IMG/VR virus record: IMGVR_UViG_3300028805_000073
Length of the DNA stretch: 60,395 nucleotides
From: a virus
Lineage: Duplodnaviria; Heunggongvirae; Uroviricota; Caudoviricetes
Strand: one strand, 5' to 3'
The notes below the pieces were generated by a model, which was given only the letters and a program-made list of their open reading frames with translations, searched no databases and was not told the DNA's origin. Position 1 is the stretch's first letter; each line of letters starts with the position of its first letter. The translations under genes were made by a program, and so were the position numbers. This document shows, piece by piece, positions 49,396 to 57,372 of the stretch.

Positions 49396-49426
49396 TAGTT
49401 ACTTACAAATTTCATAATTTAAAAGA

Positions 49427-51277
49427 ATGATTACAGTAGAATTAAACAAAAAGAACGAAAACCCATTTTATGGGTGTAGTAACTGTTTGAAATTAGTCGA
49501 ACAAGCAGCAGGTAATATAACTTATTCTATGCTTGATGCAGCATGGAATGAAGTTGCACAAGATATCGAGAAGAGAAAGATGTTCTTTTCAGTACTATTC
49601 TCCATTGGAGATATTACTGGAAGACAGCATAATATCTTTAAAGGAAAGAAAGTAGACTCTGGTGGTAATGCCAATAGAGATGCTTTCAATACCATTTTCC
49701 ATTGGTTATGGAACAATAACAAAAATCAATTCATTAAGTTCATGAACGCTCAGCTATTCAATGAATATCAGTGTTTTGATACATTGTTCCAGAATCGTGT
49801 GCAAACCAAAGGATCAAAGGTGTTGAATGTATTCTCTGCCTATCGTGATCCAGAGTATAAGAAAGCACTTCTTAACTATGTGTATTCTGTTATCAATGGT
49901 ACCAATCCGTTTAACAAGATGCTCATAGCTAAGTTCTTGACCATTCCTCGTACATCTAAGAGACAAGGTCATAAGAAGATGTTTCCTGAAACTCTCAAAA
50001 TTATGAGAGAGAAGAAGGCTTTCTTAGAGGAACTTTCTAAGATGATGGGTTGGGAGATAGCTTTCTTAAAAGGTTATCGTGAATGGCGCAAACAGTACAA
50101 TGGAGAATTGGAATCTGTTCTCTTCTCTACTGGAAAGATTAACGAATTTACTACTAAGGATGAATTCCTTAGTTGGTTTGATAAGCTTCCAGCACAAGCA
50201 CGTTTCCGTGTGAAGAACCGTATTCTTTATTCTAAAGATGGAACTCAAACTATAAATACTAAGAAGAACGATGGTAAAAGTCTTACCATTGTTGCAGATA
50301 AGTATAAGTGGGCTAAGTTCCAGCCTTGGTTAAAGGAATGGGAAACTTACAAGGATAAGAAGCAAGAAGAGCAACGTATTCTTGAAGAGAAAGTTCGTCA
50401 AGGACAGGCATCTGATGAAGATAAGATTAGACTTCAGAAGGTGAAGAAGGAAGCAAAGGTTACAACTGGTGCTATTAACTTTAAAGAGTTGTATGATTCA
50501 ATTCTGAGAGGTAATGTAGACAAGTTAAAACTTGAATCATTCATCCAGAATAAAGTCAATTTGCCATACAATAGTTTGGTAATCATTGACGATTCTGGTT
50601 CAATGAACGGCTCTCCGTTCAGATTTGCGAAGTTTATCGCTTCAGTATGTCTTGTTAAGAATCCAGATGATGATGCTCGTAATCTAATTGGATTCTTTAA
50701 CAGTACTTCTCACTGGCACAGTTTCATTGATCAAACTTCTTCTCGAAGAAATAGTCTTCTTAGAACTCAAATTGCTCAAACTAATGCTAAGCCATTAGTT
50801 GATCCAACCTTGAGTTTCTATGATAACTACTTGAGAATTAGTAGTTTCTGTGAAGCAGTATATCAGGGTGGAGGAACATACATCACAAGTATTCCTAAAG
50901 GTTTAGAGTTTATCATTAAAGAGAATCCAGATTTCTTGGACACTCTTAAAGAGTATCCGATTTGGACAATCTTAAGCGATGGTGACTTGAACAATGATTG
51001 GAATGCTCGTAGTAGTATGCTACAATTCCAGAATGACTGCCGTCGTATTCTTGGTTATGTTCCATTCGTAGTGATGATTGAAATTTATCGCTATGGACAA
51101 CCTTCAATTAACCATTTTGAAGGAATTGAGAATATGATTTACATTCCTGGAAATCCTGCTCAGATTGAACAATTCTTAACCAACTTTAAGGATATGGATA
51201 TCTTTGATGTCTATACTCCATTGTTGAGTCTCTATAGAAGTAATAGGTATGAACTCGTGAGAGCAAATACCCTTTAA
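49427..51277 (+). CDS. TROVE/DUF2828-like protein with C-terminal vWA domain (Ro60-like architecture)
   Basis: MIDAS motif VIIDDSGSM plus later GGT and ILSDGD elements. The helical N-terminus has LF...DI...GG...R..F and AKF..PR elements of the kind seen in DUF2828/TROVE proteins. Family assignment is by recalled motifs. Confidence 0.7.
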   Translation: MITVELNKKNENPFYGCSNCLKLVEQAAGNITYSMLDAAWNEVAQDIEKRKMFFSVLFSIGDITGRQHNIFKGKKVDSGGNANRDAFNTIFHWLWNNNKNQFIKFMNAQLFNEYQCFDTLFQNRVQTKGSKVLNVFSAYRDPEYKKALLNYVYSVINGTNPFNKMLIAKFLTIPRTSKRQGHKKMFPETLKIMREKKAFLEELSKMMGWEIAFLKGYREWRKQYNGELESVLFSTGKINEFTTKDEFLSWFDKLPAQARFRVKNRILYSKDGTQTINTKKNDGKSLTIVADKYKWAKFQPWLKEWETYKDKKQEEQRILEEKVRQGQASDEDKIRLQKVKKEAKVTTGAINFKELYDSILRGNVDKLKLESFIQNKVNLPYNSLVIIDDSGSMNGSPFRFAKFIASVCLVKNPDDDARNLIGFFNSTSHWHSFIDQTSSRRNSLLRTQIAQTNAKPLVDPTLSFYDNYLRISSFCEAVYQGGGTYITSIPKGLEFIIKENPDFLDTLKEYPIWTILSDGDLNNDWNARSSMLQFQNDCRRILGYVPFVVMIEIYRYGQPSINHFEGIENMIYIPGNPAQIEQFLTNFKDMDIFDVYTPLLSLYRSNRYELVRANTL

Positions 51278-51300
51278 ATAATCGTGTAAAATTTTAAATT

Positions 51301-51331
51301 GACTAGAGGAGGTTCGATTCCTCCTCTAGTT
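51301..51331 (+). ncRNA. T-loop-capped 12-bp minihelix-like hairpin
   Basis: GACTAGAGGAGG TTCGATT CCTCCTCTAGTT. Confidence 0.5.
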
Positions 51332-51338
51332 TCTAATT

Positions 51339-51403
51339 AGGATACTTACAATATTAAATTGCTAGTAAGTAACCAACTTTTAATTGATTACATTTAGTAT
51401 CCT
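51339..51403 (+). ncRNA. Y-like cassette 1 (AGTA-loop hairpin plus Lys-UUU anticodon hairpin)
   Basis: AGGATACT/AGTATCCT closing stem; internal TTGCT-AGTA-AGTAA and CAA-CTTTTAA-TTG. Confidence 0.7.
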
Positions 51404-51434
51404 TTTTAACAAATTTTAAATTTGAAATAAAAAT

Positions 51435-52226
51435 ATGAAAAATAAATTAAATGTACTTTTAGCTTTAAGAGAAAAACTCGCAAATCGTTATGCACAAATG
51501 AATGGAGATTACACTTCATTCTTTAAAAATAAACAGGGAGCTTTTCAAGGAGTATTAAAAACTCACTCACCTTTAGATGGATATTCAATAGATCCAACTA
51601 AGGTAGCAAATACTAGAATTGTTACTACAGTAAATGAAAAAATGGATTGGTGGCTTAAGGAAGCATTAGAATATTTTAATACAGCTCTTGCTATTGAAGC
51701 GTCCAATGGTGAAGGTGCTCCTTCTGTAAAACTTGAATTTGAAGGAAAAGAATACGGACCATTTCCTGCTACTGTACTTCTCCGTCTTCGTGGCATTATT
51801 GAAAGTGATAAACTTGCACAGATGCTTGGTTCTATTCCAGTAAGAGAGGAGACAAAAGTTTGGTTTCCATCAACTGATGAGGATTACATAAAGAGAGGTA
51901 ACATTTTTGAAACTGAAATGCAATCTGGAGAAACTCGTACAACTGAGACTCATGATGAAATTTTAAAAGATTGTAATCTTGATCCTCAGCATCTTCCTTC
52001 TAATTATAAAGCAGTAGTTACTTCTGTTAAGAAAACTGTAAAGACTGGTGATTACACAACTCAGTTTTTCACTGGTGAATGGACACATCAGCAAAGAGCA
52101 AATCTTTTGAAGAGACGTTCAGAACTTCTTGATGCTATCAATGTTGCTTTACAGAAAGTAAATGACCGAGAGGCTACTGAATGTAAAGTTGATGAACTTC
52201 TTGGACATTTGATTTATGGACAATAA
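51435..52226 (+). CDS. Conserved phage hypothetical protein (263 aa)
   Basis: Track ORF located inside the TROVE-like/RNA locus. Confidence 0.8.
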   Translation: MKNKLNVLLALREKLANRYAQMNGDYTSFFKNKQGAFQGVLKTHSPLDGYSIDPTKVANTRIVTTVNEKMDWWLKEALEYFNTALAIEASNGEGAPSVKLEFEGKEYGPFPATVLLRLRGIIESDKLAQMLGSIPVREETKVWFPSTDEDYIKRGNIFETEMQSGETRTTETHDEILKDCNLDPQHLPSNYKAVVTSVKKTVKTGDYTTQFFTGEWTHQQRANLLKRRSELLDAINVALQKVNDREATECKVDELLGHLIYGQ

Positions 52227-52473
52227 GATATTTCTTCTTGATTGGGAAGATAATGATATGGTTGGAGGTTTTGATGGAAAAACTTTTGATCAATGTTTTA
52301 ATACTGATAAAAAGTTATTATGTTGGAGCCTTCAACATACTATGGAATTAAAAGGAGTATCTTCATTAGAAATTCAATTTCTTAAATCTCATAAAGAATT
52401 AAATGAATTAAGAAAAAAGAACAATATTGAAGTAAAACCTACTCTCGATGAATATTTAGAAAAATTTAAATAA
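52216..52473 (+). CDS. Small hypothetical protein
   Basis: Track ORF overlapping the previous stop. Confidence 0.6.
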   Translation: MDNKIFLLDWEDNDMVGGFDGKTFDQCFNTDKKLLCWSLQHTMELKGVSSLEIQFLKSHKELNELRKKNNIEVKPTLDEYLEKFK

Positions 52474-52498
52474 TTGACCGTAGCTTTAGATTCACTTT

Positions 52499-52842
52499 AT
52501 TAGCTTTACAAATCCTAGATAATAAGCATTAATGTCGTGGTCAAAAGCATTAGTTAGGTTGATTACTGTATATTACTTACCTTGACGATTATAGCAATCC
52601 TAATATCGTAAGTTCGAATCTTACTAGCCCCTCATCACAGGCGTACTGAAGAAGGTTCAGCATTCCCGAAGTAAAATGTGTGAAATAGCTTTTATTAGAG
52701 GAGCTTCCCCGCAGAGGTTGTAATCTAATATTTGGGGCTATAGTATAGTGGTTAGTACATTAGGTTAGTTTAGCATTAGATTAAAGAGGTAAAAGGTAAT
52801 ATGCAAAAGTCTATGGATTAGTAAGACGGATTTGTCGCTAAT
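52499..52842 (+). ncRNA. Large rod-shaped RNA with a circularly permuted tRNA domain
   Basis: The tRNA 3' half (CCTAA, T arm 52608-24, TAGCCCC) precedes the 5' half (GGGGCTA 52734-40, D arm, TTAGG). Flanks pair as TGTATATTAC/GTAATATGCA, TTACCT/AGGTAA, ACAAATCC/GGATTTGT and ATTAGC/GCTAAT. Confidence 0.75.
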
Positions 52843-52846
52843 CCTA

Positions 52847-52921
52847 GGGGAAGTAGATCAGTGGTAGATCAATAGTCGCCAAAACTATGTGTCGTTGGTT
52901 CGAATCCAACCTTCCCTGCCA
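52847..52921 (+). tRNA. trnW: tRNA-Trp(CCA) with non-canonical G33, encoded CCA end
   Basis: Full cloverleaf; anticodon arm ATAGT CG-CCA-AA ACTAT; G73. Confidence 0.8.
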
Positions 52922-52922
52922 T

Positions 52923-52999
52923 AGAGAGGTATGCGAATTGGTATAGCAGCTTAAAATTCTAGGTATAAGTGTTTGGGAGTTCGATTCTCTCCCTCTCTA
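52923..52999 (+). tRNA. Aberrant tRNA with Leu-type D arm and irregular anticodon arm (TTCTAGG; UAG or CUA reading ambiguous)
   Basis: Acceptor AGAGAGG/CCTCTCT and intact T arm. CTTA/TAAG encloses 12 nt. Confidence 0.5.
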
Positions 53000-53006
53000 C
53001 CTGATC

Positions 53007-53071
53007 AGGATACTTACAATACTAAAAAGCCAGTAGGCAATCAACTTTTAATTGATCATGTTTAGTATCCT
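53007..53071 (+). ncRNA. Y-like cassette 2 (AGTA-loop hairpin plus Lys-UUU anticodon hairpin)
   Basis: AGGATACT/AGTATCCT; GCC-AGTA-GGC; ATCAA-CTTTTAA-TTGAT. Confidence 0.75.
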
Positions 53072-53090
53072 TTTAAAGAGATATAAAAAT

Positions 53091-53212
53091 AAGTTACTTA
53101 CAAAATAAAATATTAGCTTGCTAAGCCGCGTGTCATGGGTTCAAATCCCATCAAGGGACTATAAACTCCTTGTAGCTCAGTCTGGTAGAGCAACGTATTC
53201 ATTAAGTAACTT
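53091..53212 (+). ncRNA. Y-like cassette 3: permuted tRNA elbow (T arm, closed acceptor, D arm)
   Basis: AAGTTACTT/AAGTAACTT; ATGGG TTCAAAT CCCAT; CAAGGGA loop TCCTTG; GCTC AGTCTGGTA GAGC. Confidence 0.8.
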
Positions 53213-53322
53213 TTTAAAATTAAAAAATTATGGGAGAATTAGCTTTTATTTGTGGTTGTATGACATATTTGTGTGTTATGATAACCTTTATTTATATCAA
53301 ATTATGTAATAAATAATATAAT

Positions 53323-53436
53323 AAGATACTTACAAAACCATATTTAATGTTGGTTCGAATCCAACCTTCGTATTTACGATGTGGTGAAATTGGTATACAC
53401 GAGAAACTGTGGATTTCTTTATAAATTAAGTATCTT
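53323..53436 (+). ncRNA. Y-like cassette 4: permuted T-acceptor-D plus His(GUG) anticodon hairpin
   Basis: AAGATACTT/AAGTATCTT; GTTGG TTCGAAT CCAAC; TCGTA/TACGA; GTG..GGTATA CAC; AGAAA CT-GTG-GA TTTCT. Confidence 0.8.
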
Positions 53437-53442
53437 TTATAT

Positions 53443-53561
53443 GCAGGAGATAGTGTAATTGGTAACACGACGTAGTTATTAGTATCATACGATACTTACA
53501 ATACCAATTAACATTGCTTTTGGTGCCGTTAATGAGTGGTTCGAGTCCCTCTCTCCTGCCA
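53443..53561 (+). ncRNA. Cassette 5: tRNA-Gln(UUG)-like RNA with a 43-nt insertion carrying the closing stem in permuted form
   Basis: Normal-order tRNA. The anticodon stem ACG|GC / GCCGT is split by 53473-53515, which contains AGTATC-ATAC-GATACTTACAA. Confidence 0.75.
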
Positions 53562-53784
53562 GTTTACACACTAATAATATACGCGTTAAAAATAGTGTGG
53601 TTTTCCTATTCAACCTGAGTGGAACACTTCGATGTTATCTTCTAAGTCTGAAAGTTAAGCGATTAGGTACTAAAGGAAGTGAGAATAGTGAAAATGCTTT
53701 TGAAATTGTTATTTTTTACTTATTATATTAATAATTTACAAAGAGAAGTCTGTTGTGAAACATACTTCTTTACTAATAAACAAT

Positions 53785-54063
53785 ATGGAAAAGTATAGAA
53801 TTGCATTTACAATAGAGGACTATTACGATTATATTGGATATAGTATTAAAGAACGTATGTTACAATCTATTCCAGATTTATTTAGAGAGAATGGTTATAA
53901 CATTAAATTCAAAACTCTTCATTATTATCAACATAAATACTATAGAGTACACATGTCGGTTAGAATGACAGAGGAAAAAATCAAGGAAGTATTTGAAGAA
54001 TACAAAGATATGATGTTTGAATTAAATAACACATCATATAAATTAATAACAAAACATTTTTAA
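53785..54063 (+). CDS. Small hypothetical protein
   Basis: ATG-trimmed track ORF. Confidence 0.6.
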   Translation: MEKYRIAFTIEDYYDYIGYSIKERMLQSIPDLFRENGYNIKFKTLHYYQHKYYRVHMSVRMTEEKIKEVFEEYKDMMFELNNTSYKLITKHF

Positions 54064-54067
54064 TTAT

Positions 54068-54295
54068 ATGGGAAAAGGTAAAGGTGAATTAGTAGTTCGT
54101 CAAAGAGCTGCTTTAAAAAGATTGGAGGCTGCTTATGAAAAATTTAAAGCAGCTGGTGAAGATAAGAAACCTTACGATTCTACTCGTAATGGTAGAATTA
54201 TTCATCACTCTGGTAGAAGTTATAAAGAAGAATGTGAAAGAATGAAGAAAGAAATCTCCAATTTAAAGGAGAACATTTCAAAGAATCATTCTTAA
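54068..54295 (+). CDS. Small basic hypothetical protein
   Basis: Track ORF of 75 aa. Confidence 0.65.
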   Translation: MGKGKGELVVRQRAALKRLEAAYEKFKAAGEDKKPYDSTRNGRIIHHSGRSYKEECERMKKEISNLKENISKNHS

Positions 54296-54341
54296 CATTT
54301 TTTAACTATAATATCTAAAAATAAAAAATAAATTTAAAATC

Positions 54342-54396
54342 AAGATACTTACAAATTTTTATTATAATTTATAATGTTGGAATAAATAAGTATCTT
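54342..54396 (+). ncRNA. Y-like cassette 6 (minimal)
   Basis: AAGATACTT ACAA ... AAGTATCTT followed by a T run. Confidence 0.65.
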
Positions 54397-54403
54397 TTTT
54401 TTG

Positions 54404-54487
54404 GCCCCTATATTCGAATTGGTATAGAAGACAGACTTAAAATCTGTTCAGCAGTTGCTGGTGTGAGTTCGAGTCTCACTAGGGGTA
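54404..54487 (+). tRNA. trnL: tRNA-Leu(UAA)
   Basis: GCCCCTA/TAGGGGT; ACAGA CT-TAA-AA TCTGT; long variable arm. Confidence 0.88.
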
Positions 54488-54506
54488 CATGGACTGAGGA
54501 TAACTT

Positions 54507-54993
54507 AATTAAATTTGAGTGCTATGGCGAGAAATCCCATAGTAGAATCTCCCTAAAACGGTGGAAGTCCTTTTAGCCCTGATATATCAGGAGGATTTTC
54601 TGCACTGAACAATCGCAGAACACTAACCAATAATGTGTAAGGATAATACCGTGCTAAATTGATAATCTTAGTAGCATTTATATGTGAAAAGCGAATGTTG
54701 AGTAGTAGAACGGCTACATTATCATAAATGTGTAGAGGATATAGAGGAGATACCTAAGTTGAAATTTATGTTAAAGCAGAGTATAGAAACTGCTACATAT
54801 GAGATATAGTTTACATAAGAACCTATTCCCTCAAAAGGTTTAAACCCTAACATAATCTTGCAAGAATTTCAATATGGTAATAATATATTCCAGACCACAA
54901 CAAATTTAACGCATCATCGGTTGGATGCCTGGGGACATGTGCCTCGTATATACGTTATTGTTAAGTTTGGCTATGGTAACATAGTGTGGTAGG
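54507..54993 (+). mobile_element. Group I intron (487 nt, no ORF) lacking a recognisable tRNA 5' exon
   Basis: P1 ACUU|AA/UUGAGU with a U.G pair; P3 ATCTCC/GGAGAT; P4 ACGGT/ACCGT; P7 GAGGATA/TATTCC; GTAA-capped P9; terminal G. Confidence 0.8.
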
Positions 54994-55044
54994 AAAATCC
55001 AATGTCCAGTAATGGACGTGGGGATTCAATTTCCCCTAGAGCTA
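54994..55044 (+). pseudogene. Orphan 3' half of a class II tRNA (Leu-UAA type)
   Basis: AAAA TCCAA, variable arm GTCC/GGAC, T arm GGGGA TTCAATT TCCCC, acceptor strand TAGAGCT-A. No complementary 5' half was found nearby. Confidence 0.7.
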
Positions 55045-55114
55045 CATGTCGTGAGACATATGATTTTTTGTTAACGATTGTTGGTTAAGCTACTGTACCT
55101 TAACAGTAGCACTT

Positions 55115-55185
55115 TGGGGTTCGGTGTGACGGTCGCACAGAAGATTTTGGTCCTTCTAGTACAGGTTCAACTCCTGTAATCCCAA
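55115..55185 (+). tRNA. trnQ: tRNA-Gln(UUG)
   Basis: TGGGGTT/AATCCCA; loop TT-TTG-GT; U1-A72. Confidence 0.85.
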
Positions 55186-55189
55186 CTAT

Positions 55190-55254
55190 AGGATACTTAC
55201 AATAGATAATTAAATGCGATAAATAAATATTTATAGGAATGTTCTAAGTATCCT
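55190..55254 (+). ncRNA. Y-like cassette 7 (minimal)
   Basis: AGGATACTT ACAA ... AAGTATCCT. Confidence 0.65.
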
Positions 55255-55258
55255 TAAT

Positions 55259-55296
55259 GCGCTCATAGCTCAGTTGGTAGATGCACATGACTTTTA
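55259..55296 (+). pseudogene. Orphan 5' half of tRNA-Lys(UUU)
   Basis: GCGCTCA TA GCTCAGTTGGTAGATGC A CATGA CTTTTA, fused directly to the next tRNA. Confidence 0.7.
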
Positions 55297-55367
55297 GCTT
55301 CCAAAGCTTTAAGGTGAAGCACGAAACTTTTAATTTCGGGAACACGGGTCAGTACCGTGTGGAAGCA
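55297..55367 (+). tRNA. trnK: tRNA-Lys(UUU) with atypical T loop (GTCAGTA)
   Basis: GCTTCCA/TGGAAGC; CGAAA CT-TTT-AA TTTCG; CACGG/CCGTG. Confidence 0.8.
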
Positions 55368-55373
55368 CAATTT

Positions 55374-55499
55374 AAGTTACTTACAAAATTATTAATAATA
55401 TTATACTAAAATTAGTATCAATGGTTCGAATCCATTATTTTCCACCATATTTTTTGGGAGATTAGCATAGTGGTTTAATGCAATATTTTTAAGTAACTT
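55374..55499 (+). ncRNA. Y-like cassette 8: permuted tRNA elbow with internal ACCA and a G3.U70 pair
   Basis: AAGTTACTT/AAGTAACTT; T arm 55420-36; ATTTTCC-A-CCA (55437-47), linker, GGGAGAT (55456-62); GCAT/ATGC D stem. Confidence 0.8.
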
Positions 55500-55702
55500 T
55501 CTTCTATAAAAGAATATTTAACAAGACCCTCTAACTAAGGTGACAGGCTGCCTTAAGCAATGTAGGTGTACGCTAGCAATAATCCATACATTTCTAGGTG
55601 AGAGTAAATATAAAGTTGGTGCACAAGTGAAATTACTCTTAGAGCATTTAATACTAAATAAATTGGTTTAAATGTAATGTCAAAAAATATTCTTTTTAAT
55701 AT

Positions 55703-55775
55703 CACGGAGTGGAGCAGTTGGTAGCTCGCCAGGCTCATAACCTGGAGGTCGCACGTTCGAATCCTGCCTCCGTAA
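55703..55775 (+). tRNA. trnM: tRNA-Met(CAU), initiator-like (C1xA72)
   Basis: Cloverleaf with loop CT-CAT-AA and a C1/A72 mismatch. Only two of the three initiator G-C pairs are present in the anticodon stem. Confidence 0.85.
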
Positions 55776-55801
55776 CATAGCTTTCTTTTTTCTGACATAA
55801 T

Positions 55802-55908
55802 AAGATACTTACAAAACTAAAATGATGTTTAGTTCATTTGGTTAGAACGATTTCTTTTCAAGAAATAGTAACAAGTTCGATTCTTGTAATGTCAACCAGA
55901 AGTATCTT
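55802..55908 (+). ncRNA. Y-like cassette 9 enclosing a complete tRNA-Glu(UUC) (55823-55898, CCA end)
   Basis: AAGATACTT/AAGTATCTT flanks TGATGTT...ATTTC TT-TTC-AA GAAAT...AATGTCA-A-CCA. Confidence 0.8.
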
Positions 55909-55912
55909 AAAT

Positions 55913-55984
55913 CGTGGGTTCATCTAAGGGTTAGGATTGCAGATTTTCGATCTGCCCATACCAGTTCGAATCTGGTACCCATGA
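55913..55984 (+). tRNA. trnE: tRNA-Glu(UUC)
   Basis: CGTGGGT/ACCCATG; GCAGA TT-TTC-GA TCTGC. Confidence 0.85.
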
Positions 55985-56188
55985 CTTAGTCCGACTTTTT
56001 GGCAAAGTCGTTAAAGAAATGCACCACTGTTTAATAGTTTTGCAGTAAAGAACTATTCGTTGTAAGAGAGAAAATAACTCTTAGAATAAGCGTTAATGAT
56101 TCAAAAAAATTCCTAGATATTTTTTCTAGTAGAATCCTACATGGTTACAAATAATGACTAATAAAATAACATAAATGTAGGATTATTT

Positions 56189-56260
56189 GGGGTGTGTGAT
56201 GTAAAGGCTAACATATCATCCTTGCACGATGAATTTGCGGTTCGAATCCGACACACTCCA
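56189..56260 (+). tRNA. trnA: tRNA-Ala(UGC)
   Basis: G3.U70, A73; TCATC CT-TGC-AC GATGA. Confidence 0.85.
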
Positions 56261-56263
56261 CTA

Positions 56264-56347
56264 AAGATACTTACAAATACTTTTAATATTTTATTAGACA
56301 TCATATGTAGTATCAAGTTTATTAATCTTAATAATCTTAAGTATCTT
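56264..56347 (+). ncRNA. Y-like cassette 10 with Lys-UUU anticodon hairpin
   Basis: AAGATACTT/AAGTATCTT; AAATA-CTTTTAA-TATTT at 56275-91. Confidence 0.7.
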
Positions 56348-56352
56348 TTAAT

Positions 56353-57158
56353 GCTCCCTTAGCTCAGTGGATAGAGCAACTGCCTTCAGTATATTTCTGT
56401 GAAGAAATAAACAGGAGTGCTATGGCGAGAAATCCCATAGTAGAATCTCCCTAAAACGGTGGAAGTCCTAGTTAAAATTGAAGACCCTTAGTAGCCTATA
56501 GGCGAAAGTGGAATACGGCTTTAATGGCTTGCAGCAAACGTAAACTGCATCTGAAACAATAAGGAAGGATAATACCGTGCTAAATTGAGAAACAGTAGAA
56601 GTCCTTTTAATACTGATAATATAAATTCATTTGTATATAAAATTTATGTTAAGATAAATATAAAACTTTTGAATAAAATAGCGTCTTGGCTATATCCAAG
56701 CAATAATATCAGTAACACTAACCAATAATGTGTAAGGATGATTTAGTACAAATAGTTCAAATGGAAATAGAACGCTCATAAAAGTGTAGAGGATATAGAG
56801 GAGATATGAGGGAAATATATTGAATACCCTCACATTCTATTCAGACGTATCTGATAAGAATGCCTAAGTTGAAATTAGTGAGGGAAGGTCACAGTAGTCC
56901 TGTTATAAAACATCGGAAAACCTCCTTGCTTACTTGCAAGAATTTCAATATGGTAAAGATGTATTCCAGACCACAACAAACAAACAATCGCTGAGGGTAA
57001 CAGAGTGACTATCGTAGTTACAAGGCAAATCCTGTAAGTCAAAAGCCTAAGCCTTCTTAGGGATAAACATAAAATCGGAGGCTAAAATTTGTTTGGCTAT
57101 GGTAACATAGTGTGGTAAGCTAAGCAGTAGGTCACAGGTTCGAATCCTGTAGGGAGTA
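56353..57158 (+). tRNA. trnR: tRNA-Arg(UCU) split by a group I intron: join(56353..56386, 57120..57158)
   Basis: The spliced product has ACTGC CT-TCT-AA GCAGT, acceptor GCTCCCT/AGGGAGT, and canonical D and T arms. Confidence 0.9.
56387..57119 (+). mobile_element. Group I intron (733 nt, no ORF) after U34 of tRNA-Arg(UCU)
   Basis: CUU|C pairs with IGS GGAG through a U.G pair. The core is nearly identical to the 54507-54993 intron and ends in G. Confidence 0.9.
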
Positions 57159-57258
57159 CTATATTCAATACTAGATAAGAATCTCTTTTTTGTTTTGTTT
57201 TCATAGTATTAGTTCTATATAGAGAGTAATTCTAGTTAAACTCTCATTTCATAATAAT

Positions 57259-57372
57259 GAGATACTTACAAAATCATATTTTGTGAATTTTTAGCTCATT
57301 TGGTAGAGCGCACGATTTATAATCATGAGGTCGCCGGTTCAATTCCGGCAAAATTTATTTTATTAGTATCTC
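57259..57372 (+). ncRNA. Y-like cassette 11 enclosing a tRNA-Ile(UAU)-like cloverleaf (57285-57357)
   Basis: GAGATACT/AGTATCTC flanks a tRNA with loop TT-TAT-AA and an almost purely A-U acceptor stem. Confidence 0.75.

What the first reader, a model, noticed from the sequence alone, without database searches (positions are those of the whole stretch)
52499..52842. ~340-nt rod-like RNA with a permuted tRNA head
Seen: a tRNA 3' half (52599-52632) lies upstream of its matching 5' half (52734-52764), with perfect GGGGCTA/TAGCCCC and TTAGG/CCTAA pairing and a ~100-nt linker. The flanks form a long interrupted duplex down to ATTAGC/GCTAAT. The 5' end has a TTTACAA variant of the cassette motif. Joining the halves at the anticodon position could give TT-GCA-AT (Cys, consistent with U73), but no splicing signal is evident. 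Inference: a giant Y-like member or a permuted tRNA gene of a kind known mainly from algae and archaea.
Basis: partly seen in the sequence, partly recalled or inferred. Interest (0 to 1): 0.8.

Follow-up and report, generated by a model that had tools for sequence, protein, structure and literature searches.

The report
Acceptor-capped tRNA-mimic RNA beside DUF7873
The "back-to-front tRNA" is real, but it is the head of a ~370-base structured phage RNA that always follows one unknown protein gene (DUF7873), so it is a tRNA look-alike of an apparently undescribed RNA-protein family and not a gene for a working tRNA.

Summary
A tRNA 3' half (52599-52632) lies about 100 nt upstream of its matching 5' half (52734-52764), and the re-joined halves pass ARAGORN as a 73-nt cloverleaf. 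A strict scan finds this one site in the window, against 0.01 per shuffled window.

Eight homologues show heavy compensatory change in the T, acceptor, D, anticodon-like and 17-bp rod helices. That 3' sequence forms a local hairpin instead, and the true 5' end is a new helix P1 (52474-79 with 52539-44).

The "linker" is a variable cap on the acceptor stem: 18-27 nt in most relatives, about 100 nt here. No anticodon is conserved, so a permuted tRNA gene is rejected.

The RNA tracks the DUF7873 gene (51435-52226), not the Ro60-like gene upstream. It is present in 6 of 6 loci with DUF7873 and 0 of 13 without. A permuted tRNA-like module follows DUF7873 in 40 of 51 diverse phage loci. Five near-complete genomes that carry it have no TROVE gene.

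Rfam 15 has no family for it, and YrlA is the nearest known. This scan has already reported the same DUF7873-RNA family in other genomes. Function is unknown, and expression could not be tested.

The parts
51435..52226 (+). DUF7873 gene (263 aa, P0122), the conserved protein neighbour of the RNA
   Evidence: Pfam PF25283, E 6e-31. It lies directly upstream of the RNA in every homologous locus with upstream sequence and is absent from 13 Ro-like loci that lack the RNA. In 40 of 51 diverse DUF7873 loci a permuted tRNA-like module lies 145-390 nt downstream. AF2 pLDDT is 94, with no solved-fold match.
52216..52473 (+). 85-aa ORF between DUF7873 and the RNA; lineage-specific insert
   Evidence: ORF list. 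It is also present in L010/L139. In other loci the RNA starts 15-40 nt after the DUF7873 stop.
52474..52566 (+). 5' domain closed by helix P1 (52474-52479 TTGACC with 52539-52544 GGTCAA). It contains a 20-mer (52529-52548) that is invariant in the 8 close homologues
   Evidence: Alifold predicts P1. Family-wide compensatory pairs are TTGACT/AGTCAA, TTCGAC/GTCGAA, TCGACA/TGTCGA, ATACCT/AGGTAT and TTGACG/CGTCAA. 96% of cells pair, 4 of 6 pairs change on both sides, and 0 of 500 shuffles match. The 20-mer is invariant.
52567..52583 (+). Rod helix, 5' strand (pairs with 52786-52805, with a 3-nt bulge)
   Evidence: 17 pairs, 8 of them with changes on both sides, 96-97% paired.
52599..52603 (+). Anticodon-stem equivalent, 3' strand (pairs with 52760-52764). 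It runs on into an internal loop and the rod, not into an anticodon loop
   Evidence: (helix 3).
52608..52624 (+). T arm (GTAAG / TTCGAAT / CTTAC)
   Evidence: 100% paired, with 4 of 5 pairs changed on both sides, in both the close set and the diverse set.
52625..52633 (+). Acceptor 3' strand TAGCCCC (pairs with 52734-52740), followed by the conserved unpaired U-C
   Evidence: 7 bp, 100% paired in the close set and 96.8% in the diverse set; 6 of 7 pairs change on both sides in the diverse set. The next base is T (25 loci) or G (15 loci), then an invariant C.
52634..52733 (+). Expansion of the acceptor-closing loop (100 nt, predicted to form two hairpins)
   Evidence: Linker length is 19 nt in L010 and L071, 69-78 nt in four homologues, and 100-101 nt here and in L059. 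Across the family it is 18-27, 62-80, 114-131 or 203 nt. Fold.
52734..52764 (+). Acceptor 5' strand, U8-A9, D arm (52743-52758, loop AGTGGTTA) and the 5' strand of the anticodon-stem equivalent
   Evidence: The G15-C48 Levitt pair becomes A15-U48 in L010 (read).
52765..52810 (+). Conserved single-stranded block (TAGCATTAGATTAAAG type), then the rod 3' strand (52786-52805)
   Evidence: Alignments; pairs.
52812..52846 (+). 3' terminal hairpin (GGATTAG/CTAATCC with inner GAC/GTC; loop GGATTTG), abutting tRNA-Trp at 52847
   Evidence: 15 pairs, 5 changed on both sides. In L168 and L171 the homologous hairpin is followed by a T run, which marks the RNA's 3' end.
49427..51277 (+). Context only: a divergent Ro60-like protein (helical N-terminal part plus vWA/MIDAS domain), 1.2 kb upstream
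   Evidence: PHROG 850 'RNA-binding protein', E 5e-5. The Foldseek top hits are all Ro60/TROVE over the full length, E 2.5e-5 to 1e-3. VIA gives TROVE 9kop Z 11.1 over 333 residues and Rsr 2nvo Z 10.8 over 319 residues.

Best explanation
Positions 52474-52846 encode one structured non-coding RNA of about 373 nt. It is a 'one-headed' member of a phage RNA family that sits immediately 3' of a DUF7873 gene on the same strand.

Anatomy, from 5' to 3':
- a 5' domain closed by helix P1;
- a 17-bp rod;
- on top of the rod, a complete tRNA body in circularly permuted order (anticodon-stem equivalent, variable loop, T arm, 7-bp acceptor stem, D arm);
- a 3' hairpin.

The acceptor stem is not open. It is capped by a loop, which in this lineage has grown to a 100-nt two-hairpin insert. 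There is no anticodon loop.

Shown here: the fold, its conservation and covariation, the variable cap, and the linkage to DUF7873.

Inferred:
- The RNA is co-transcribed with DUF7873. Its 3' end is released when RNase P cuts the adjoining tRNA-Trp.
- It forms a ribonucleoprotein with the DUF7873 protein.
- Like YrlA-type Y RNAs, it presents a tRNA-shaped elbow (D loop and T loop) to a tRNA-recognising host or phage factor, as decoy or adaptor, without being decoded.
For: Structure:
- On a sequence-only alignment of 8 homologues, 54 pairs are 97% paired and 25 change on both sides. None of 500 shuffles matches, and slid controls reach only 2-6 pairs.
- On 18 diverse family members aligned by MAFFT alone, the T stem is 100% paired, the acceptor 96.8%, and 19 of 27 pairs change on both sides; 0 of 500 shuffles match.
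- P1 covaries across the family.
- The halves form a canonical cloverleaf, and the chance rate is 0.01 per window.

Cap, not spacer of fixed role: the linker is 19 to 101 nt among close homologues and 18-203 nt across the family.

Linkage:
- DUF7873 is present in 6 of 6 loci with the RNA and 0 of 13 Ro-like loci without it.
- The module lies downstream of DUF7873 in 40 of 51 IMG/VR loci, down to 32% protein identity.
- DUF7873 is the only protein neighbour conserved across lineages.

3' end: the homologous hairpin doubles as a terminator in L168 and L171.

No Rfam family covers it.
Against:
- About 7-11 of 51 DUF7873 loci show no module downstream. One group, L153-L157 and L162, clearly lacks it within 600 nt, so the pairing is frequent but not obligatory.
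- The DUF7873 fold matches nothing known, so RNA binding by it rests on synteny alone.
- A 7-bp acceptor plus T arm is a classical RNase P substrate, so the RNA may not stay in one piece.
Confidence: 0.6

Rival explanations
1. It is a true Y RNA (a YrlA-class member). Its stem binds the Ro60-like protein encoded 1.2 kb upstream (49427-51277), and its tRNA-like head recruits an effector, as in Rsr/YrlA systems.
For: It has the same permuted topology as YrlA (PMC4201824). The upstream 616-aa protein resembles Ro60/TROVE plus vWA over its full length. Three small YrlA-like cassettes lie in the same array, one at 41.9 bits on RF02553. One family member, L161, gets 35.5 bits on YrlA.
Against: The element gets no YrlA hit even at E<=10. 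It has no GNCGAAN0-1G motif. It is absent from 13 loci that have the Ro-like gene but no DUF7873. No P0001-like gene lies within 3 kb of DUF7873 in L141-L188. Neither TROVE (PF05731) nor a P0001-like gene is found in 5 phage genomes that are 94-100% complete and carry the module.
Confidence: 0.12
2. It is a precursor of a two-piece RNA. RNase P cuts 5' of G52734, the 3' side is trimmed back to U52632 (or C52633) and CCA is added, so the cap is discarded. The product is a split, acceptor-open tRNA-like molecule held together by the rod, matured as two-piece tmRNAs are and as seen for M. smegmatis YrlA.
For: A 7-bp acceptor plus T arm is the minimal RNase P substrate. M. smegmatis YrlA, the one YrlA with a 7-bp acceptor, is cut by RNase P in vitro and is cleaved and CCA-tailed in vivo (PMC4201824). 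The cap is free to vary from 18 to about 200 nt in length and in sequence. The unpaired N-C right after the acceptor is conserved, usually as N-C-N-A.
Against: - The long caps carry stable, conserved hairpins. UUCG and GNRA-type loops are shared by L004, L158, L143 and L103, which suggests the caps are retained.
- The position-73 base is U or G and the 3:70 pair varies, so no single aminoacylation identity is conserved.
- There is no G3.U70, ARAGORN calls no tmRNA, and a candidate tag frame is broken by an indel in L071.
- No data on RNA ends are available.
Confidence: 0.15
3. It is a circularly permuted tRNA gene. The flanks are joined and the linker removed to yield a functional tRNA.
For: The 3' half lies upstream of a perfectly matching 5' half, and the re-joined halves form a valid cloverleaf. 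The phage lives by tRNA tricks, including TAG recoding with suppressor tRNAs.
Against: The putative anticodon triplet differs in every lineage: GCA, ACA, AAU, AUA, CAU. The 'leader' and 'trailer' are the most conserved, covarying parts of the element. No bulge-helix-bulge arrangement is evident at the junction, where an asymmetric internal loop leads into the rod. The short-cap relatives have the same body.
Confidence: 0.02

Closest known systems
YrlA (Y RNA-like A; Rfam RF02553; Chen et al. 2014, PMC4201824)
   Same: Both are tRNA mimics in permuted order (T arm, loop-closed acceptor-like stem, D arm) mounted on a long stem that replaces the anticodon arm. Both keep the tRNA tertiary-pair nucleotides, including R15-Y48 covariation. 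Both occur in phages, often near tRNAs. The mycobacterial member also has a 7-bp acceptor.
   Different: This RNA is three times longer (about 373 nt against about 115). It has an extra P1-closed 5' domain and a 3' hairpin with a conserved loop. It has no GNCGAAN0-1G Ro60 motif and no Rfam hit. Its constant genomic partner is DUF7873, not Ro60/TROVE. Its acceptor cap has expanded to 100 nt.
Two-piece (circularly permuted) tmRNA of alpha-proteobacteria and cyanobacteria (textbook knowledge; ARAGORN models them)
   Same: The gene order has the acceptor 3' strand and T arm upstream of the acceptor 5' strand, separated by a variable intervening segment, and a long helix replaces the anticodon arm.
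   Different: There is no G3.U70, no conserved tag reading frame and no pseudoknot series. A full D arm is present. ARAGORN finds no tmRNA.
Permuted tRNA genes of Cyanidioschyzon merolae and some archaea (my own knowledge, not read here)
   Same: The 3' half is encoded upstream of the 5' half, with a linker between the acceptor strands.
   Different: Those genes mature through a circular intermediate into a normal tRNA with an anticodon loop. Here there is no anticodon, the flanks are conserved and structured, and the hosts are bacteria, which lack the splicing endonuclease.
DUF7873-associated tRNA-mimic RNAs reported earlier by this scan on other genomes (unpublished AI notes)
   Same: The gene-RNA arrangement is the same, as are the permuted and capped tRNA body, the absence from Rfam and the absence of Ro60. 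I reached the DUF7873 link independently before reading those notes.
   Different: Most earlier cases are described as two-headed (about 370-400 nt). This one is one-headed, has an unusually large acceptor cap, and lies next to a Ro60-like gene and small YrlA-like cassettes in a TAG-recoded crAss-like phage.

Membership tests
YrlA / bacterial Y RNA (RF02553) | tRNA-like domain in the order T arm, loop-closed acceptor-like stem, D arm | tested here: met
YrlA / bacterial Y RNA (RF02553) | Reaches the Rfam gathering score (69 bits) | tested here: not met
   No YrlA match over 52474-52846 even at E<=10. The neighbouring cassette at 53105-53220 scores 41.9 bits, and family member L161 scores 35.5 bits.
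YrlA / bacterial Y RNA (RF02553) | Ro60-binding module with GNCGAAN0-1G on the 5' strand of the terminal stem (PMC4201824) | tested here: not met
   A regex search finds none in the element. The 5' and 3' ends do not pair with each other with covariation support.
YrlA / bacterial Y RNA (RF02553) | Encoded beside, and bound by, a Ro60/TROVE protein | tested here: inconclusive
   In this window a Ro60-like gene lies 1.2 kb upstream. However, the RNA tracks DUF7873 rather than that gene, and 5 near-complete genomes with the module lack TROVE. Binding cannot be tested here.
Circularly permuted tRNA gene (algal/archaeal type) | 3' half upstream of the 5' half of one tRNA | tested here: met
Circularly permuted tRNA gene (algal/archaeal type) | The ends can be joined to give a conserved anticodon loop and a functional tRNA | tested here: not met
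   The triplet at the would-be anticodon differs in each lineage. The flanks are conserved, covarying structure.
Two-piece tmRNA | G3.U70 alanine identity, a tag reading frame, and recognition by ARAGORN | tested here: not met
   The 3:70 pair is G3-C70. The candidate frame is broken by an indel in L071. ARAGORN calls none.
DUF7873-associated tRNA-mimic RNA (undescribed; defined operationally here) | Lies directly 3' of a DUF7873 gene on the same strand | tested here: met
   DUF7873 is at 51435-52226. The same arrangement holds in 40 of 51 loci.
DUF7873-associated tRNA-mimic RNA (undescribed; defined operationally here) | P1-closed 5' domain, rod, capped permuted cloverleaf with N-C after the acceptor, and a 3' hairpin | tested here: met
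DUF7873-associated tRNA-mimic RNA (undescribed; defined operationally here) | The RNA is expressed and bound by the DUF7873 protein | not testable with these tools

The most novel reading that the evidence does not exclude
The RNA is a phage 'split tRNA mimic'. Host RNase P opens the capped acceptor at G52734, the 3' strand is trimmed and CCA-tailed, and the resulting two-piece particle, loaded with DUF7873, carries a free acceptor end but no anticodon. It could then be charged, or be attacked in place of real tRNAs, for example by soaking up acceptor-end or elbow-directed anti-phage nucleases and transferases. That would make it a Ro60-independent counterpart of Y RNPs and of two-piece tmRNA.
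Probability: 0.15. Interest if true: 0.85.

Novelty: new variant of a known kind. Interest (0 to 1): 0.62.

Why it matters
tRNA-shaped non-coding RNAs (tmRNA, Y RNAs, viral tRNA-like structures) have each revealed a distinct way of exploiting the cell's tRNA-handling machinery.

This RNA has a full tRNA body, strong covariation, its own extra domains and a constant protein neighbour of unknown fold. It recurs in the tRNA gene clusters of crAss-like and jumbo phages from gut, rumen and environmental samples. It is absent from Rfam 15 and from the papers I could search.

If DUF7873 and this RNA form a particle, that would be a second, Ro60-independent class of tRNA-mimic RNP. It would probably be tied to the phage-host conflict over tRNAs.

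This phage is a useful case for two reasons. It carries both a Ro60-like gene with small YrlA-like RNAs and the DUF7873 RNA side by side. Its enlarged acceptor cap also shows which part of the RNA is free to vary.

Tried and rejected
- A phage GenBank search with the region found only a tRNA-Trp match.
- An IMG/VR exact-motif scan gave 3 contigs. The metagenome scan with a 16-mer returned mostly chance hits and 4 true homologues.
- nhmmer with the element profile found nothing in 13 Ro-like loci lacking DUF7873.
- Rfam, at gathering and at permissive thresholds, gave nothing on the element and nothing but a weak YrlA hit in 10 family loci.
- A tmRNA-like tag (a 12-codon frame from about 52803 to the TAA at 52839-52841) was considered and dropped. 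The frame is broken in L071, and the conserved changes are explained by the hairpin.
- Reading TTGACC as a -35 box was rejected. No sigma-70-type promoter is called there, and the hexamer covaries with its pairing partner.
- Apparent UAG/YAG-repeat tracts in the single-stranded blocks are not enriched over Markov shuffles, so I make no claim about them.
- DUF7873 fold searches gave no informative match: Foldseek on PDB had a best E of 0.012, VIA-align against 48,161 chains had a best Z of 7.1 on generic helical bundles, and AFDB clusters returned only uncharacterised proteins. phmmer against PDB gave nothing, and no paper mentions DUF7873.
- The first attempt to fetch DUF7873 loci with the 66-sequence alignment failed for lack of a conserved stretch.
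- No covariance model was built. The full model would exceed the calibration limit, and the MAFFT-only alignments already gave non-circular covariation.

Full report
**Setting.** The window is AT-rich (about 30% GC). Its minus-strand genes in 1-38 kb open only when TAG is read through, and it carries two CUA-anticodon tRNAs. It also has a large terminase, and relatives sit on contigs of 130-190 kb. It is therefore a TAG-recoded, crAss-like phage, as earlier notes on this genome also say. A plus-strand block (49.4-57.5 kb) holds a 616-aa gene, a DUF7873 gene, an 85-aa ORF, the element in question and a tRNA array.

**The observation.** The sequence is as described.
- The 3' half is an anticodon-stem 3' strand CCTAA, variable loop TATC, T arm GTAAG/TTCGAAT/CTTAC, acceptor 3' strand TAGCCCC and U73, at 52599-52632.
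- 100 nt further on come the acceptor 5' strand GGGGCTA, TA, a D arm with loop AGTGGTTA, one A, and TTAGG, at 52734-52764.
- The MFE fold recovers this permuted cloverleaf.
- Joined in silico with any 7-nt loop, the halves are called a 73-nt tRNA by ARAGORN.
- A strict scanner required a T arm, a 7-bp acceptor across a linker, a D arm with GG, and an anticodon-like stem. It finds this one site in 60 kb on both strands, against 0.01 sites per window in 100 shuffles.

**Homologues and structure.** Seven further homologues were found (94% to about 70% identity).
- On their MAFFT alignment, a structure of 54 pairs is 97% paired and 25 pairs change on both sides. No shuffle of 500 reaches this, and slid controls give 2-6.
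- Supported helices are the T stem, the 7-bp acceptor, the D stem, the anticodon-like stem, a 17-bp rod (52567-83 with 52786-805) and a 3' hairpin (52812-46).
It shows no compensatory change and breaks where it varies.
- Extending the alignment upstream revealed helix P1, TTGACC (52474-79) with GGTCAA (52539-44).
- In distant relatives both strands of P1 change together: TTGACT/AGTCAA, TTCGAC/GTCGAA, TCGACA/TGTCGA, ATACCT/AGGTAT. This hexamer is therefore RNA, not a -35 box, and no promoter is called there.
- The element spans 52474-52846.

**The linker.** Its length is 19 nt in two homologues, 69-78 nt in four, and 100-101 nt here and in L059. It is thus an expansion of the loop that closes the acceptor stem.
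- In this window it is predicted to form two hairpins.
- Several relatives share a hairpin with a GNRA-type loop in theirs.
- The two bases after the acceptor (U-C here) are conserved.

**No anticodon.** The anticodon-like stem opens into an asymmetric internal loop and then the rod.

**What it travels with.**
- The upstream 616-aa protein does look like a divergent Ro60. It matches PHROG 850, has a MIDAS motif, and returns full-length Foldseek and VIA matches to Ro60/TROVE structures, although global TM-scores are low.
- The RNA is nevertheless missing from 13 loci that have this gene.
- It is present wherever the DUF7873 gene is: 6 of 6 loci against 0 of 13.
- I fetched 51 IMG/VR loci by DUF7873 (32-96% identity, contigs 28-550 kb, mostly inside tRNA arrays). 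In 40 of them a permuted, capped tRNA-like module lies 145-390 nt downstream on the same strand.
- On a MAFFT-only alignment of 18 diverse members, the T stem is 100% paired and the acceptor 96.8%, and 19 of 27 pairs change on both sides.
- The 5' domain, the conserved blocks and the 3' hairpin with a GGAU-UUG-type loop recur. In two lineages that hairpin is followed by a T run, fixing the 3' end.
- No other protein neighbour is conserved.
- Five near-complete genomes with the module have neither TROVE nor a P0001-like gene.
- DUF7873 folds confidently (pLDDT 94) into a helical-bundle-plus-sheet shape that matches no solved structure. Its only predicted-structure relatives are uncharacterised proteins.

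**Comparison with known families.** Topologically the head is that of YrlA (PMC4201824). It differs in five ways:
- the element fails the Rfam model;
- it lacks the Ro60 motif;
- it is three times larger;
- it has extra domains;
- it has another partner.

It is not a tmRNA. M. smegmatis YrlA, which has a 7-bp acceptor, is cut by RNase P and CCA-tailed. A two-piece mature form is therefore a live alternative that I cannot test.

**Earlier notes.** After I had reached the DUF7873 link, the scan's notebook showed that the same gene-RNA family had already been reported on many other genomes, mostly as two-headed RNAs. One later check there rated the protein-binding claim as unproven. This case is a one-headed member with an enlarged cap, sitting next to a Ro-like system.

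**Verdict.**
- The structure is real and well supported.
- The reading as a permuted tRNA gene is rejected.
- The reading as a Y-like tRNA mimic is right in form, but the Ro60 link is not supported.
- Function is unknown. My best guess is a DUF7873 RNP that displays a tRNA elbow.

Noticed in passing
window 56341-57160 (+): A tRNA is split by an insert of about 735 nt in its anticodon loop. The 5' part is 56341-56378 and the 3' part about 57118-57160. By position and loop remnants it is probably tRNA-Arg(UCU), which relatives L001 and L002 carry intact at this place. No Rfam family, including group I introns, matches the insert even at E<=1.
   Followed up: partly
window 54489-55110 (+) and 56395-57125 (+): Two related structured stretches of about 600-730 nt share their first ~50 nt and last ~27 nt. 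One lies between tRNA-Leu and tRNA-Gln, and the other is the insert in the split tRNA. No ORF and no Rfam hit.
   Followed up: no
window 53096-53215, 53328-53435, 55379-55500 (+): Three YrlA-like cassettes of about 115 nt (T arm, closed acceptor, D arm) are each closed by a GATACTT/AAGTATC-type stem. The first scores 41.9 bits on Rfam YrlA. In the third the acceptor 3' strand ATTTTCC is followed by ACCA before the cap.
   Followed up: partly
window 49401-57271 (+): The motif ACTTACAA recurs 12 times on the plus strand. It appears upstream of small RNAs and tRNAs and also just before the start of the Ro-like ORF (49401). In all there are 27 matches to AYTTACAA against 14 expected. A similar TTACTTAC lies in the 5' strand of the rod of the big RNA (52575-52582).
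   Followed up: partly
window 49427-51277 (+): A 616-aa protein with no Pfam hit gives full-length structural matches to Ro60/TROVE plus a vWA/MIDAS domain. More than 1,200 homologues exist in metagenomes, on contigs up to about 180 kb.
   Followed up: yes
window 53441-53560 (+): A tRNA-like gene carries a ~43-nt insert in its anticodon stem, and the insert contains the cassette motif in hairpin form. It gives only a weak tRNA-Sec model hit.
   Followed up: no
L151 has a deletion that removes the T arm. Caps have therefore expanded independently.
   Followed up: partly
window 51306-51323 (+): A T-arm-like hairpin (GAGGA GGTTCGATT CCTC) lies right after the Ro-like gene and is scored as terminator-like.
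   Followed up: no
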